64,000 bases of DNA from Octopus vulgaris (Eukaryota): positions 128,278,001 through 128,342,000 of the forward strand of contig OX597816.1 of NCBI GenBank assembly GCA_951406725.2, in the 5' to 3' direction. Below are positions 46,315 to 59,000 of the stretch, piece after piece. A program made the position numbers. Each line of letters begins with the position of its first letter. Within the stretch, counting starts at the first letter, position 1.

Positions 46315-48330
46315 AAGAAGAAGAAGAAGAAGAAGAAGAAGAAGAAGGTGATGATGATGATGATGATGATGATGGAACAACAGCAGTGCACAAATGAGCT
46401 GTGAGTAAAAGCATCATCATCATCATTATCCTCATCAACATCACCACCACTACCACCACCACTATCATCATCAGTGATCTTTGATTTTCACTTATTTATT
46501 TTGGCCTGTTGTGGACAAAGCTACAAAGTAGCTTCTCTCAAACTGATACTTGCATTTGGCAATTTATTCCCTTAGCCACCAGTTTCTGACTAATCTAATC
46601 CAACCTAGTTATGCTTCTAGTGCTTTTCTTGGCTTAACTTTACAGGGAGCTAATGTAAACCAATAACGGGTGGCATACTGAAAATGGCATACTGATAAAG
46701 GGCCAAAAAATAGGAAAATATATATGTTTACAGATTTTATCTTAATGCACCATTTCATCAGAGAATTGAAACAACAATCTTGTAATCATGAGTGCAACAC
46801 CCAAACCTCTAAGCCATCCACCCACATACATTACATATATATGTATGTATATATGTATCTTTGTATGTATGTATGCATGTAACTCCTGGTAAATTAACAG
46901 TTTTTGTTTGTTGATTCCACTCACAAGGATTTGGTTGACTCAGGGTTATAGTAGAAGACATCTGTTCAAGATGCCTTGCTGTGGAACTGAATTCAAAGTT
47001 GGGAAGCAATCTTCTGAAACATGCAGCCATGCCTGCACCTTGTCTCAAAATTTAGATTTAGTTTTATATCCACCAAATTAATTAAATTTTTGCATCTATT
47101 TTTCTATGCTTGTACATGTCATATTTTCTTTTCCTTTGAACAATTGCTTCCACAACTAGATTCCAACTCAGTGGCTAACCATTGGAATCCCAAGAACTGA
47201 ACTTATATTTTTTGTCAATTATGCATATTCAATCACACAGAAGCAGAGCTATGTGCCTTGATCAGAGACAGAACCGTAAAATCTTGGCCAATGTTCTCCA
47301 CCATTCTTTTTTTTTGTGGATGTCAAGAATTTGTACAACCACTCAATGGATATTTGAGTTACCTAACTTCTGTCAATACAGTTTTATACACTTTCCACCA
47401 GGAATGGAAAGAATGTCACATCCTTACATTATCTTGTATCATTTGAGCTCACAAAATAAGAATATTGATATAATGCACTCAGTGTATGGAAAACTTTTAG
47501 ACTGAAATCTTACAGGTCAACTCTTTCCATTTAGCTCATTTTTTAGAGTTTAAAACAAAATTCTTAATTTTCTTTCCATTGGATTCTTGCTCATGAATCT
47601 TGTCTCATTTTTATTTAGGTAAGCTTCTGCCACATGTTTTTGAGAGGCAATTTTACAATCTCACAAAGTAGTAATTGAGAACAAAGCATCCACATTAATG
47701 TCAGCTCCATCTTCAAAACCATTGCCTTAAATTCTTTAATGTCAATAAAAGTTTATTCCAAGACTCTTCACTTAGGCAACTGACAGCCTTTATAAAACAT
47801 CCATCCACCCTGAAGTGAGGAGACAAGCCTTTATGCTGCATGGCTTTCTAATATAGCAGTCACATTTTCTTTCAAGCAAATATCTCGTATCTTAAGTGCT
47901 GGCTTTACTTATTCTAAAGCCTAAATCTCTGGCTAACATACAAATATGACTGAGCTGACCGAAACATGAAAGCTAATCAATAAAAAAGACTGGATGAAAT
48001 TTAACATGATGGTTCCCAAAGATGAGCATTTAACTCTACAGTATCTTATTATTTTGAATTATACCAACTAGAGTTTACTTAGAATTTCATTTCCAAGAAA
48101 GGTGATGGTTGTAAAAAATATTAAAGTGGGAGGGAAAAAAACTACATATAGTATGTTTCAAATCTATAAAATGTTATGTGAAGAGTAGAGAGGTAATTAT
48201 AGTTAAAATTTTAAATTTACATTACTTTAAAGAAATAAGTATCAAAACTTCTATTTACTTCCAGGGTACTTTGAGCACAAGATAGAAAAATATTTAAAAG
48301 AGCATTTATATATTTTTGCCTCTTACCACC

Positions 48331-48390
<60 letters not shown>

Positions 48391-56000: not shown

Positions 56001-59000
56001 TATGACATCAGGACAGTATTCAAAAGTAATACAACACTTTGAAAATATCTCCTTTGAGTAAAACCACCAGTAGAAGAGAATATGACCAAGAACTGCATGT
56101 ACTCCATCCCATGCAGCTGTGGTAGGTTAGACAAAGGTGAAACATGTCACGCCCTCAAAATAAGGGTAGAGGAACATCACAAAGCTGTGACAAAGGGAGA
56201 TATTGATAAATCGGGTTTAGCTGATCATATATGGAAAAATGGCGACCACTTCCCCCTGTGGGATGAAGTTACAATAATAGACTGAGAACACCACTGGAAA
56301 ATATGAAAACTAAAAGCAGCAGCACATATGCTAAGACACAATAACCACCTAAGCAGACTGAGCACAGATATGAACAGCATATGGGAACCGGTATTAAGGA
56401 AGGATAGGAGAATTTTAGATTTATAAACCCTAAAATTCACTTCATAATTGCACATGGGCATATGGTGTAGTGGTTAAGAGCAGAGGCTACTAACCCCAAG
56501 ATTCCAAGCTCGATTCCAGGCAGCGACCTGAATAATAATAATAACAATAATAACAACATCGAAATTTCCCCAACAAGATGAGGACAAATATCCACCAAAT
56601 GTAAATAATGTACATAATTCCTCATCTCTTAAATACAGAACTGAGTTCAAACTTTGTACGAGTTCATACCTCATAGGATTGAAGCTGTAATTACTGCCAA
56701 AAGTATATTAAAATAAATTTGTTTGAAATTTTAGGTGCTTCCATTATTTTGTCCAACCACTATACACACACACACACACATATGGAATCACAAACTTGTA
56801 ATGAATGCACTTAGGTATGAAGAATATTTATATCATATTGCTTGCATGTTATATACTATTTACATTATGAATGGTAAAGTATCTTGTATTATATTTATAT
56901 AATATTGTGCATTTTAATGATTACTATGATATATGTGTTATAATAGATTTTTATTTCACATTGACAAGAAAAGACACTTCATTTATTACCTCAGAAGTAA
57001 ACTTAAAATGTGTAGACCTGAAAATAGGGATAAATAGATGAGATCTCTCAAACTTGTTTTGTCTAATCAGAATAAAGTTATTTTGATGGGCTTAAAAGAC
57101 TATAAGTCAGAAGCTTACATTCTGAAAGATTTAGGTGTGAAGTATGCATAAAATATTTATAGGAGTTGTTCAAAGGTCAGAATTAATATGCTCAGCCAGA
57201 GAGTTCTTCATTTAGTTAAGTAGCCACCAATGATGTCTATACGATCATGTTATTTTCATTTTTATTCTTAAATTCATTATTAAGCATTTCCCTCTCCTGG
57301 AATTGGTACAATTTTATAGTATATGTAGTTCCTACATCCATAAATTTGTCTTTACTCAGTTTTTACTGTCTTCATCTATTTCTCATAACAGCTGGAAGTA
57401 CTAAACAACACTATATGCATCATAGTTAAAAAAACAAAGATGAGGGGAAAATAATTGTTTTCTAAAGTATTCACTGACCCCCATCACCCTTTTGTTTCAT
57501 CTTCTTTTAACTAAAGTGTACTCTACTAGTAATAACACTAAAAATAGAAGAAAACATTTTTCATTAACTGACATAAGTGTGTACGTTCAAAGCTCTTCTG
57601 ATGCGATCACCTAAAATGGACAATGAAAAGAAGCCTCAAATTTGAAGTCATCTCAAGCATATATCAATTAACTTGCTGGCTACATTACTTTCACATGACT
57701 TGTCATAACACTTTAGAGAACGAATTTGTTTAATGATTAATTTTTTAATGATTAATCTTTCAGGTTGAAAAAAAAAACAATAAATGATTTCAATAAAAAT
57801 CAGATGACAAGTTACATCATTAAAATTCTTGCTAGAAATCAAGTTACACAAAATCAGAGACACAAGTCAGTGAAACTAATATATGGAAGCTGTAAATTAC
57901 AATTCTATTATTTTGTTTCATTTAATAAGATTGTAAAAGCTGCAGGGCTGTTTATTTTTTCTTTTGTTTAATTTTCTTTTATATTACAGAAATTTGTGCA
58001 AGTATGAGATATGGTGTTGAGATCATTATGTCGTTGGTAATAAGCAATTAAGTGGTTGTATTTGTGGACAAGAATGACCATCAGATAAATATTTCCATAC
58101 ATTTTTTCAAATTTAACAGTTTATACCTTACATATATACAAGACCTATATATACTAAAATAAAGACAGCTGCTTGTTAATTACTTGTGAGTACATAAATT
58201 TTACTAAAAAAAAAGAGCAATTATTAAAATCCATACTGCCTAGAAAATTCTTATAAATTCCACTTTTAATATATTTTTATGAAATATATTAGGAACTTTT
58301 ATTATTAATGATTTCAATAACCTATTAATCAGGAGACTATTAGTCAGGAAGTTAATTGACTGCAACACACTTTTTTAACATTTTATATTTGTATCCATTT
58401 TCTTTTGTTCTTTCCTTACAATGATGTCTGTCTTTGTCTCTCTCCCACTTTCCAGTTATCTTTGTCTACTACCGTTATTCATATTAGGTTTTTATTTTAT
58501 ATCTTTATAACATTTTCTCTCTCACTTTTATGCTCATTCTTTTTTCATCATTTTTCATCCAGTGGTCTTTGTCATTTCTCCCCCCATCTCTCTCTCTCTC
58601 TCTCTTGAGCTGACTCTCCACCACTTTTATTCAATTGTTTTCATTAAAAATAAGTAAGTACAAAGTTTTTCTTTGAAGTACATTCCGAACATTTGTGAAA
58701 AATTTCACTGTATCTAGTTATCAAATCAAAATTACTTAGAAATTTTTCATTTCAAGTCTTATATATATTGACAGATATGCACAAATACAGCCATTACATT
58801 CAAGCAAACGTGACATACACTCACAGAAAATTGCCCTCTGGGCGGTATTTCTGCTAGTTTGTATAATGCAGAAGAACATTTCTGTGTATCTGAGGTAATA
58901 CTTGAAGATTTACAACAAGGAAGCTGCAGAGAACGATTTTTGTTAAATTTGCTATGTTGCAAGTGTCCTACATTATTATACATATAAAAGAAAATAGAGC

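What the first reader, a model, noticed from the sequence alone, without database searches (positions are those of the whole stretch)
47190..57011. Interlocking long-range inverted duplications forming a multi-arm dsRNA scaffold
Seen: arm A (about 47190-48175) is an inverted copy of B (about 53815-55170), roughly 6 kb away. A has no counterpart for B's internal segment C (about 54610-54865); A's complementarity stops at about 54610 and resumes at about 54868. C is instead an inverted copy of D (56781-57011). None of these arms resembles the SINEs or LINEs in the window. In a transcript, A:B and C:D would give nested or pseudoknotted helices totalling about 1.2 kb, with mariner, CR1 and Penelope insertions confined to the loops. 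Established: coleoid cephalopods have extensive ADAR A-to-I editing that needs such duplexes. Inference: serial inverted duplications created editing-complementary or splice-regulatory sequences, or a hairpin-RNA/siRNA source.
Basis: partly seen in the sequence, partly recalled or inferred. Interest (0 to 1): 0.85.

Follow-up and report, generated by a model that had tools for sequence, protein, structure and literature searches.

The report
Inverted repeat pairs in repeat-rich DNA
Two real pairs of inverted repeated DNA sit among transposon remnants and could fold into long double-stranded RNA if transcribed together, but nothing shows they are more than an ordinary by-product of duplication and transposon insertion.

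Summary
The inverted repeats are real, but shorter and less interlocked than described.

- **A and B:** Arm A is 47304-48175. Arm B is 53817-54944 and is interrupted by C (54609-54868).
- **C and D:** C's only other copy is D (56762-57011), which is inverted.
- **Predicted pairing:** About 950-985 bp, not 1.2 kb. Only a 58-nt helix crosses C:D. The main A:B helix and C:D lie side by side.
- **Mosaic identity in A:B:** A sharply bounded 438-bp core is 96.6% identical, against 71% and 82% in the flanks. Arm-to-arm gene conversion explains this best.
- **No sign of selection for pairing:** Mismatches give G:U versus A:C counts of 20:25, and 38 of 83 are transversions.
- **Window context:** The window has 46 inverted and 47 direct repeat pairs of at least 120 nt. 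A:B stands out only by its length and by having no third copy in the window.
- **Loops:** They hold a mariner with its own terminal repeats, a CR1-type LINE fragment and a Penelope-like remnant.

Genome-wide copy number, transcription, editing, small RNAs and the source organism could not be checked. My verdict is an ordinary member of a known class, neighbouring inverted repeats that may be hyper-edited. No function is shown.

The parts
47304..47361 (.). Outer A segment, pairing with B2 beyond the C insertion site
   Evidence: Smith-Waterman alignment 47304-47361 against 54944-54869 with 5- and 14-nt indels. blastn gives 76.7% over 43 nt, E=0.001. nhmmer gives E=0.73. It is collinear in alignment A2.
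47362..48175 (.). Main part of arm A. About 12 nt at 47362-47373 have no counterpart in B; homology to B1 follows.
   Evidence: 86.0% over 795 gapped columns, with 83 substitutions in 768 aligned columns.
47473..47911 (.). High-identity core of arm A
   Evidence: Two-changepoint likelihood scan: 15 differences in 438 positions inside against 77 in 353 outside, 2dLL=67.7. Identity is 96.6%, against 71.3% (left flank) and 82.3% (right flank). The left edge is abrupt: 25 mismatches in 87 aligned nt, then 67 nt with no mismatch.
53817..54607 (.). B1, the inverted copy of the main part of A
   Evidence: nhmmer E=1e-163.
54069..54506 (.). High-identity core of arm B, counterpart of 47473-47911
   Evidence: Coordinate mapping from the A:B alignment.
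54609..54868 (.). C, a discrete 260-nt insert in B that is absent from A. It replaces about 10-12 nt of the A-type sequence.
   Evidence: Alignments A1 and A2. No target-site duplication: best 9 nt with 1 mismatch, reached by 67 of 300 shuffles.
54869..54944 (.). B2, the short continuation of B beyond C, ending in an A-rich run on the + strand
56762..57011 (.). D, the inverted copy of C. One end abuts a (CA)n tract that is longer than the CA-rich start of C.
   Evidence: 87.2% identity over 242 aligned columns, about 83% with gaps.
49444..50716 (-). Mariner-type DNA transposon in the A-B loop, with its own roughly 30-nt terminal inverted repeats and a broken ORF
   Evidence: Pfam Transposase_1, E=3.2e-19, at 49788-50033(-), and HTH hits at 50085-50303(-). 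Terminal inverted repeat seen (pair I13).
51184..52692 (+). LINE reverse-transcriptase ORF (502 aa, uninterrupted, no endonuclease domain upstream) in the A-B loop
   Evidence: Pfam RVT_1, E=2.4e-37. Named relatives are bird and turtle CR1-type proteins at 33-39% identity.
55340..56390 (+). Penelope-like retroelement remnant between C and D. A partial endonuclease-coding piece comes first, then the RT tail and the endonuclease region with stops.
   Evidence: ORFs and three-frame translation. Weak RVT_1, E=0.0036. Relatives carry RVT_1 + PF26215, and 3 of the 120 listed carry PF01541 GIY-YIG. The Atlas puts the nearest clusters in Mollusca and Rotifera. Direct repeat 55356-55475 = 56152-56271 at 92.5%.

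Best explanation
This is a stretch of repeat-rich, apparently non-coding DNA in which two sequence units each occur twice in opposite orientation. I read it as a neutral by-product of duplication or insertion and later decay.

Proposed history:
1. An 870-nt unit came to lie in two inverted copies, A and B. The flanks have since diverged to 71-82% identity.
2. A 260-nt unit, C, was inserted into B. Its only other copy, D, lies 1.9 kb away, inverted, on the far side of a Penelope-like remnant.
3. A mariner and a LINE landed between A and B and pushed the arms about 5.6 kb apart.
4. Most recently, a 438-nt tract in the middle of A and B was homogenised to 96.6% identity. Arm-to-arm gene conversion is the simplest cause.

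If one transcript spans 47.3-57.0 kb, the arms would fold into long imperfect dsRNA. ADAR would probably hyper-edit it, as happens with any neighbouring inverted repeat pair. That would be a passive consequence, not a selected scaffold.

Shown: the repeats, their boundaries, the mosaic identity, the transposon content of the loops, and the pairing energetics. Inferred: the order of events, gene conversion, and neutrality. Open: whether A/B and C/D are copies of dispersed transposon families or purely local duplications.
For: - **Repeats and boundaries:**
- **Mosaic identity with an abrupt edge:** 15 differences in 438 positions against 77 in 353, 2dLL=67.7. This is the pattern a conversion tract leaves.
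- **No pair-preserving bias:** 45 transitions and 38 transversions. G:U versus A:C is 20:25 overall and 5:5 in the core.
- **No intrinsic fold in the core:** z = +0.71 and -0.47.
- **No RNA family in the arms:** none at E of 1 or better, and no match at gathering score anywhere in the window.
- **Inverted pairs are not enriched:** 46 inverted against 47 direct pairs of at least 120 nt. C:D ranks 13th of the 46 inverted pairs by length.
- **Later transposon insertions in the loop:** at least 2.8 kb of the 5.6-kb A-B loop.
- **Simple-sequence tails:** both units end in one on one side, an A-rich run for A/B and (TG)n/(CA)n of different lengths for C/D. This is what non-LTR retroposon 3' ends look like.
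- **Literature:** most hyper-edited dsRNAs across Metazoa come from neighbouring inverted repeats, and octopus has the highest load (PMC5625713, passages). Penelope-like elements generate inverted and tandem partial copies without clear target duplications (PMC8557442, passages).
Against: - A:B (741 nt by blastn) is twice as long as the next inverted pair in the window (360 nt). Neither A/B nor C/D has a third copy in the 64 kb, so they do not behave like the window's multi-copy SINE-type families.
- No target-site duplication, terminal inverted repeat, tRNA head or coding remnant marks either unit as a transposon.
- Two different units, each duplicated in inverted orientation within 10 kb and one nested in the other, is a coincidence under independent insertion.
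- The 96.6% core could reflect constraint on the duplex rather than conversion. I cannot tell the two apart from one genome.
- Neutrality is inferred from 83 substitutions in a single pair. That is a weak test.
Confidence: 0.65

Rival explanations
1. The arms are simply copies of two dispersed transposon families, for example 5'-truncated non-LTR or Penelope-related 3' fragments. They inserted independently in opposite orientations. C is a retroposon insertion into B, and D is either another insertion or the 3' end of the neighbouring Penelope-like copy. This is a sub-case of the neutral reading that differs in mechanism.
For: - The homology of A and B ends in an A-rich run on the same end of both copies.
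- C and D share both ends, and one end is a (TG)n/(CA)n tract of different length in the two copies.
- C is a discrete insert whose limits coincide with the limits of C:D homology.
- The region is saturated with transposons.
- Penelope-like elements are heavily 5'-truncated, favour microsatellites and often lack visible target duplications (PMC8557442, passages).
Against: - No third copy of either unit in 64 kb, even with nhmmer --max.
- No target-site duplications, no tRNA-like head, and no Pfam domain in the five longest arm or arm-adjacent ORFs tested.
- No hammerhead ribozyme, which canonical Penelope-like terminal repeats usually carry.
- C is separated from the Penelope-like body by B2 plus about 400 nt. 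It is therefore not the 'immediately adjacent inverted copy' of the published structure.
- C replaced about 10-12 nt of target rather than duplicating it.
Confidence: 0.4
2. These are purely local rearrangements. An inverted segmental duplication, for instance from fold-back or template-switch repair, produced A and B. A later break in B was then patched by copying about 260 nt from the nearby D region in inverted orientation (templated insertion).
For: - Both units are confined to this 10-kb stretch.
- C's junctions show 2-3 nt of overlap with the A-type sequence on both sides and loss of about 10-12 nt of target, with no duplication. This looks like end-joining rather than transposition.
- The divergence order fits serial local events: A/B flanks, then C:D, then the A/B core.
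- Clustering of all copies within 10 kb of 64 kb is what local duplication predicts.
Against: - Templated insertions of 260 nt are unusual (recalled, not checked here).
- The simple-sequence tails at one end of each unit look retroposon-like.
- The 14-nt match between D's left flank and the outer part of A (13 of 14; 2 of 500 shuffles, one of four flank tests) is too weak to show that D was copied together with B sequence.
Confidence: 0.3
3. The locus is a functional hairpin-RNA gene, or an editing or splice-regulatory structure. The arms would be kept complementary because the dsRNA is used, either as an endo-siRNA source or as an ADAR substrate or sponge.
For: - Very stable predicted duplexes on either strand.
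- A 438-nt core held at 96.6% identity while the flanks decayed to 71-82%.
- A:B is the longest inverted pair in the window and has no other copy there.
- If this is octopus, that genome shows the strongest hyper-editing signal among the animals surveyed (PMC5625713, passages).
Against: - No excess of pair-preserving G:U mismatches, and many transversions.
- The loop is 5.6 kb and has accepted three or more transposon insertions.
- The arms outside the core are decaying.
- No promoter, transcript, editing or small-RNA evidence was available.
- No Rfam family.
- Gene conversion explains the core without invoking function.
- The taxon was not verified.
Confidence: 0.07
4. A and B are the long terminal inverted repeats of one large DNA transposon or foldback element, whose interior was later filled by nested insertions.
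For: Inverted arms of about 870 nt bracket a 5.6-kb interior that contains a transposase gene remnant.
Against: - The only transposase belongs to a 1.27-kb mariner with its own roughly 30-nt terminal repeats inside the loop.
- No target-site duplication flanks the outer ends. I compared by eye the reads; the flank pairs tested address separate insertions of A and B and also found nothing significant.
- The outer ends are the most diverged and worst-defined parts of the arms, the opposite of what functional termini show.
Confidence: 0.04

Closest known systems
Neighbouring oppositely oriented repeat pairs that form hyper-edited dsRNA (inverted Alu pairs in primates; repeat pairs across Metazoa including Octopus bimaculoides; PMC5625713, passages read)
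   Same: Two similar sequences lie in opposite orientation within a few kb, in non-coding repeat-rich DNA, and can form a long imperfect duplex. A passive ADAR substrate is the expected fate if they are co-transcribed.
   Different: The arms are longer (about 870 nt) and further apart (5.6 kb) than the within-2-kb criterion used in that paper, and less than 95% identical outside the core. They are not shown to belong to a multi-copy family. Transcription and editing were not tested here.
Complex tandem and inverted insertion structures of Penelope-like elements (PMC8557442, passages read)
   Same: A Penelope-like remnant with a partial direct duplication (55356-55475 = 56152-56271) sits between two inverted repeats, C and D. 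There are no visible target duplications, and one end sits at a microsatellite.
   Different: C is not adjacent to the element. It is embedded in B and separated from the element by B2 plus about 400 nt. No hammerhead motif was found, and continuity of D with the element's 3' end was not shown.
Genomic palindromes and inverted duplications homogenised by arm-to-arm gene conversion (for example sex-chromosome palindromes; recalled, no paper read here)
   Same: Inverted arms with a spacer, and a sharply bounded tract of much higher arm-to-arm identity than the rest.
   Different: Small scale (under 1 kb arms). Only the central half is homogenised. No genes lie in the arms. Conversion is inferred from one genome, not demonstrated.
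Hairpin-RNA (hpRNA) endo-siRNA loci of Drosophila (recalled, no paper read here)
   Same: Long inverted repeat arms of several hundred nt that could be cut into small RNAs.
   Different: Known hpRNA loci are transcribed, have arms matching target genes, and yield abundant 21-nt RNAs. None of this is known here, and the loop is very long and filled with transposons.

Membership tests
Hyper-edited inverted-repeat dsRNA (ADAR substrate) | Two similar sequences in opposite orientation close enough to pair | tested here: met
   A:B is 86% identical over 795 columns, 5.6 kb apart. C:D is 83% over 243, 1.9 kb apart. Cofold predicts 693-716 and 213-221 intermolecular bp.
Hyper-edited inverted-repeat dsRNA (ADAR substrate) | Both arms lie in one transcript | not testable with these tools
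   No expression data or gene annotation. No host exon was recognised. 20 ORFs were scanned against Pfam; only transposon domains turned up, apart from sub-threshold HTH/DUF6398 hits on the mariner HTH ORF, and the 10 ORFs had none.
Hyper-edited inverted-repeat dsRNA (ADAR substrate) | Clusters of A-to-G mismatches between RNA and DNA in the arms | not testable with these tools
   No RNA reads available.
hpRNA / endo-siRNA locus | Arm complementarity kept by selection (pair-preserving or compensatory changes) | tested here: not met
   G:U versus A:C is 20:25 on a + transcript and 25:20 on a - transcript. 38 of 83 substitutions are transversions. With a single pair of arms this is a weak test.
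hpRNA / endo-siRNA locus | Abundant 21-22-nt small RNAs from the arms | not testable with these tools
   No small-RNA data.
Penelope-like element with inverted or pseudo-LTR structure | Reverse transcriptase linked to a GIY-YIG endonuclease | tested here: inconclusive
   The RT tail gives a weak RVT_1 hit, E=0.0036. Pfam finds no GIY-YIG in 56058-56285, even at E of 1 or better. Of the 120 listed longer relatives, 3 carry PF01541 and most carry RVT_1 + PF26215. I recognised the endonuclease motif from memory only.
Penelope-like element with inverted or pseudo-LTR structure | Inverted 5'-truncated copy immediately adjacent to the element | tested here: not met
   C is bounded on both sides by B sequence and lies about 470 nt from the first Penelope-like coding piece. 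No further inverted homology exists between 54945-55340 and 56400-56760.
Penelope-like element with inverted or pseudo-LTR structure | Hammerhead ribozyme in the terminal repeat (canonical clades) | tested here: not met
   No hammerhead at E of 1 or better in 44000-60000, and none at gathering score in the window. Some clades lack it (PMC8557442).
Dispersed SINE/MITE/LINE-fragment family | Many copies with the same termini and unrelated flanks | not testable with these tools
   Only the 64-kb window was searchable, and it holds no third copy.
Dispersed SINE/MITE/LINE-fragment family | Insertion hallmarks: target-site duplication, tRNA-derived head, terminal inverted repeats or coding remnant | tested here: not met
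   Target duplications are not above shuffles (41 of 300 and 67 of 300, or none found). ARAGORN finds 0 tRNAs. No Pfam domain in the arm or arm-adjacent ORFs. Only simple-sequence tails at one end are suggestive.
DNA transposon with long terminal inverted repeats / foldback element | Arms are the element's termini, flanked by a target duplication, with a cognate transposase inside | tested here: not met
   The mariner inside has its own short terminal repeats at about 49444 and 50716. The outer arm ends are ill-defined and lack a visible duplication.
Palindrome with arm-to-arm gene conversion | A tract of arm identity far above that of the rest of the arms, with sharp edges | tested here: met
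   47473-47911 is 96.6% identical, against 71.3% and 82.3% in the flanks. 2dLL=67.7.
Palindrome with arm-to-arm gene conversion | Arms within a species are more alike than orthologous arms between species | not testable with these tools
   No related genomes available.

The most novel reading that the evidence does not exclude
The sharply bounded 438-nt core (47473-47911 and 54069-54506), held at 96.6% identity while the rest of the arms decayed to 71-82%, could mark a maintained hairpin-RNA locus. Its duplex would be kept by selection or by biased conversion because it feeds an endo-siRNA pathway or serves as a dedicated hyper-editing (ADAR-titrating) substrate. The C:D helix would stack on its end. 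If the source is a coleoid cephalopod, this would be a first hpRNA-type gene described there.
Probability: 0.06. Interest if true: 0.6.

Novelty: new member of a known kind. Interest (0 to 1): 0.15.

Why it matters
As it stands, this matters little. It is one more pair of neighbouring inverted repeats in a genome that seems full of them, and such pairs are already known to be the main source of hyper-edited dsRNA in animals.

The mosaic identity of A:B has some modest interest. It is a clean small-scale example of probable arm-to-arm gene conversion. It also gives a concrete, testable locus for asking whether long inverted pairs that are not from multi-copy families are edited, diced or silenced.

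If RNA data showed arm-restricted editing or small RNAs together with conservation, the locus would become an example of a hairpin-RNA gene outside the model organisms.

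Tried and rejected
Rejected. No significant inverted match lies beyond 47304 or 54944.
- **C:D as the inverted terminal repeat of the Penelope-like remnant.** I considered this because such elements form inverted structures (PMC8557442). It is not supported. 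C is embedded in B, there is no hammerhead, and no further inverted homology exists around the element.
- **A/B as terminal repeats of the mariner.** Rejected. The mariner has its own terminal repeats.
- **C as ancestral, with A carrying a deletion and D a third partial copy.** D's left flank has a 13-of-14 match to the outer part of A (2 of 500 shuffles). It was one of four flank tests, and the others gave 45, 208 and 122 of 500. Both limits of C:D homology also coincide with the gap in A, so a discrete insertion is more likely.
- **Target-site duplications for A, B, C and D.** None above shuffles.
- **tRNA-derived heads.** None.
- **Rfam.** There were 26 sub-threshold hits at E of 1 or better in 44000-60000. 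All lie outside the arms, and the ones I inspected sit in microsatellite-type low-complexity sequence. No match reached gathering score in the whole window.
- **Intrinsic fold of the core.** None.
- **Taxon check.** Protein searches with the LINE ORF and the Penelope-like ORF gave only unnamed best hits at 62-69% identity and named relatives in birds, turtles, insects and echinoderms. The Atlas lists Mollusca as the commonest phylum for the top cluster. The cephalopod origin stays unverified, and I did not try to trace unnamed records.
- **Protein search with the short arm ORFs (67 aa or less in A, 82 aa or less in B) as a proxy for copy number.** Not run. The window's own 502-aa ORF is absent from that database and its best hit is 62% identical, so this genome's repeats are evidently not represented there.
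- **Assembly artefact.** Rejected. The arms differ by about 11-14%, the loops hold unique transposon content, and the window has no N.
- **Not available.** The supplements of PMC5625713, which hold the per-species dsRNA figures, could not be seen.

Full report
**What is there**

A gapless repeat scan of 45000-59000 found long inverted matches between about 47.4-48.1 kb and 53.9-54.6 kb. The longest is 424 nt at 94%. It also found matches between 54.6-54.85 kb and 56.8-57.0 kb.

- Gapped blastn of 46.5-57.5 kb against the whole window gave A:B = 47385-48125 against 54593-53869 (87.9% over 741, E=0).
- It gave C:D = 54609-54848 against 57011-56782 (82.7% over 243, E=4e-66).
- The window contains no N.
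- A more permissive blastn extended A:B to 47385-48175 against 54593-53817 (86.0% over 795). It also showed a short resumption beyond C, 47320-47362 against 54909-54868 (E=0.001).
- Smith-Waterman alignment put that resumption at 47304-47361 against 54944-54869, with 5- and 14-nt indels. A three-way alignment shows A running continuously across the point where B is split.

So the arms are as follows. A is 47304-48175. B is 53817-54944 and consists of B1 (53817-54607), the insert C (54609-54868) and B2 (54869-54944). D is 56762-57011. The outer ends (47190 and 55170) are about 115 and 225 nt too generous, and nothing significant pairs there.

**How much would pair, and in what topology**

- Cofolding the arms as RNA gave 693-716 intermolecular pairs for A:B1 (ddG about -686 to -713 kcal/mol).
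- It gave 213-221 pairs for C:D (about -174 kcal/mol).
- It gave 44-47 pairs for the outer A:B2 helix, on either strand.
- The total is about 950-985 bp, not 1.2 kb.

In sequence order, B1 ends where C begins. The two large helices would therefore lie next to each other and not cross. Only the 58-nt outer A:B2 helix crosses C:D. 'Interlocking' thus rests on the weakest piece of homology, for which nhmmer gives E=0.73 on its own.

**Mosaic identity**

A:B identity is not uniform.

- A two-changepoint likelihood scan places a core at 47473-47911 (matching 54069-54506). It has 15 differences in 438 positions, against 77 in 353 outside (2dLL=67.7).
- Counting substitutions only, the core is 96.6% identical, the left flank 71.3% (87 nt) and the right flank 82.3% (243 nt).
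- The left edge is abrupt: 25 mismatches in 87 aligned nt, followed by 67 nt with no mismatch.
- C:D is 87.2% identical over 242 aligned columns.

Under a rough clock this gives an order of events. The A/B duplication came first, then the C/D event, then homogenisation of the A/B core. A sharply bounded young tract inside old inverted arms is what arm-to-arm gene conversion produces. Constraint on the duplex is the alternative, and I cannot separate the two from one genome.

**Tests for selection or function**

- Of 83 substitutions between A and B, 45 are transitions and 38 are transversions. Transversions always break a pair.
- The transitions split into G:U versus A:C mismatches 20:25 for a + strand transcript and 25:20 for a - strand transcript. 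In the core the split is 5:5. There is no sign that pair-preserving changes are favoured.
- The core folds no better than shuffles on either strand (z = +0.71 and -0.47).
- Rfam at E of 1 or better over 44000-60000 gave 26 sub-threshold hits. All lie outside the arms, and those inspected sit in microsatellite-type low-complexity sequence. At gathering thresholds the whole window has no match.
- ARAGORN finds no tRNA-like sequence.
- The five longest arm or arm-adjacent ORFs tested have no Pfam domain.

**Surroundings**

- The A-B loop (48176-53816) holds a mariner-type element: Transposase_1 at E=3.2e-19, plus an HTH. It has its own terminal inverted repeats at about 49444 and 50716.
- The loop also holds an uninterrupted 502-aa reverse-transcriptase ORF at 51184-52692 (RVT_1, E=2.4e-37). 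Its named relatives are bird and turtle CR1-type proteins at 33-39% identity.
- Together these make up at least 2.8 kb of the 5.6-kb loop, so the arms were once much closer. This is an inference.
- Between C and D lies a retroelement remnant at 55340-56390. Its RT tail matches RVT_1 only weakly (E=0.0036).
- Longer relatives of that remnant carry RVT_1 + PF26215, and 3 of the 120 listed carry GIY-YIG. This fits a Penelope-like element.
- The remnant contains a 120-nt direct duplication, 55356-55475 = 56152-56271 at 92.5%.

**How unusual is it?**

A whole-window self-comparison found 46 inverted and 47 direct pairs of at least 120 nt. That is the even split expected from randomly oriented dispersed repeats. 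C:D ranks 13th of the 46 inverted pairs by length. A:B is the longest by a factor of two (741 against 360 nt). Unlike the window's SINE-type families, neither A/B nor C/D has any further copy in the 64 kb, even with nhmmer --max.

**What the units are**

This stays unresolved.

For transposon copies:
- A and B lose homology in an A-rich run at the same end.
- C and D share both ends, one of them a (TG)n/(CA)n tract of different length.
- C is a discrete insert whose limits equal the limits of C:D homology.

Against:
- No target-site duplications rise above shuffles.
- C replaced about 10-12 nt of target, with 2-3 nt of overlap at each junction. That looks more like end-joining with a copied patch.
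- All copies are clustered within 10 kb.

I considered C:D as the inverted-repeat structure typical of Penelope-like insertions (PMC8557442, passages read). However, C is embedded in B and is not adjacent to the element, and no hammerhead was found. I also considered A/B as the long terminal repeats of a DNA transposon. The only transposase belongs to a self-contained mariner, and the outer arm ends are the worst-preserved parts. A 13-of-14 match between D's left flank and the outer part of A (2 of 500 shuffles, one of four tests) is too weak to build on.

**Comparison with what is known**

I read passages of PMC5625713. They report four things:
- Most hyper-editing in animals lies in non-coding repeats that pair with nearby oppositely oriented copies.
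- Octopus bimaculoides shows the strongest hyper-editing signal among the species surveyed.
- In that genome, 4.4e-3 of random 50-nt loci have a >95% identical inverted match of at least 40 nt within 2 kb.
- The authors take the likely role of this editing to be unwinding self dsRNA.

The locus studied here works like that class if it is transcribed. It differs in having longer, more distant arms, and I could not show that they belong to a repeat family. I did not see that paper's supplements, which hold the per-species figures.

**What stayed unchecked**

- **Expression and conservation.** Transcription, editing, small RNAs and orthologous loci were all out of reach.
- **The organism.** The best protein hits were unnamed records at 62-69% identity. 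The Atlas lists Mollusca as the commonest phylum for the nearest cluster. I did not try to trace unnamed records.

**Verdict**

The repeats are real and far beyond chance, with corrected boundaries. The 'multi-arm interlocking scaffold' is overstated. The best-supported reading is a neutral product of duplication or insertion in transposon-rich DNA, with recent gene conversion in the centre of A:B, and at most passive dsRNA formation. I give this a confidence of 0.65. A maintained hairpin-RNA or editing locus is not excluded, at about 0.06-0.07. Interest is low, at 0.15.

Noticed in passing
window 50805-50869 and 50961-51025: A compact hairpin-type inverted repeat (65-nt arms, 82% complementary, 91-nt spacer) just outside the mariner's right end. 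It could be a small MITE or a fold-back fragment.
   Followed up: no
window 55356-55475 and 56152-56271: A 120-nt direct repeat at 92.5% within the Penelope-like remnant. A partial copy of the endonuclease-coding region sits directly upstream of the RT tail, so the usual domain order is broken. This suggests a partial tandem or rearranged insertion.
   Followed up: partly
window 51184-52692 (+): An uninterrupted 502-aa reverse-transcriptase ORF with no endonuclease domain upstream. It starts within a microsatellite and ends before an (ATT)n(TA)n tract, so it looks like a young 5'-truncated CR1-type LINE copy. The best database hit is only 62% identical.
   Followed up: partly
window 13524-13899, 25368-25744, 41673-41993, 19796-20002, 60742-60971: A multi-copy family of about 200-380 nt in both orientations. 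Two direct copies are 95.8% identical over 377 nt. A shared roughly 60-nt piece also sits at 51126-51217, just upstream of the LINE ORF.
   Followed up: no
window 48299-48500, 40225-40377, 42778-42916, 53121-53162: Long (CTAT)n/(GATA)n and related tetranucleotide arrays recur in both orientations, next to (GT)n and (TA)n tracts. These low-complexity tracts give spurious inverted-repeat pairs, and the (TA)n/(CA)n-type tracts give sub-threshold Rfam miRNA-like hits.
   Followed up: partly
window 52765-52975 and 53545-53645: Two further repeat fragments in the A-B loop have diverged copies elsewhere in the window (24227-24407 and 19621-19750; 59579-59671 and 61467-61566). Even more of the loop is therefore repeat-derived than the mariner and LINE account for.
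   Followed up: no
whole window: No host-gene exon was recognised. Of the 20 ORFs scanned against Pfam, only transposon ORFs gave domain hits, and no Rfam family reached its gathering score. Whether the region is intronic or intergenic is unknown.
   Followed up: partly
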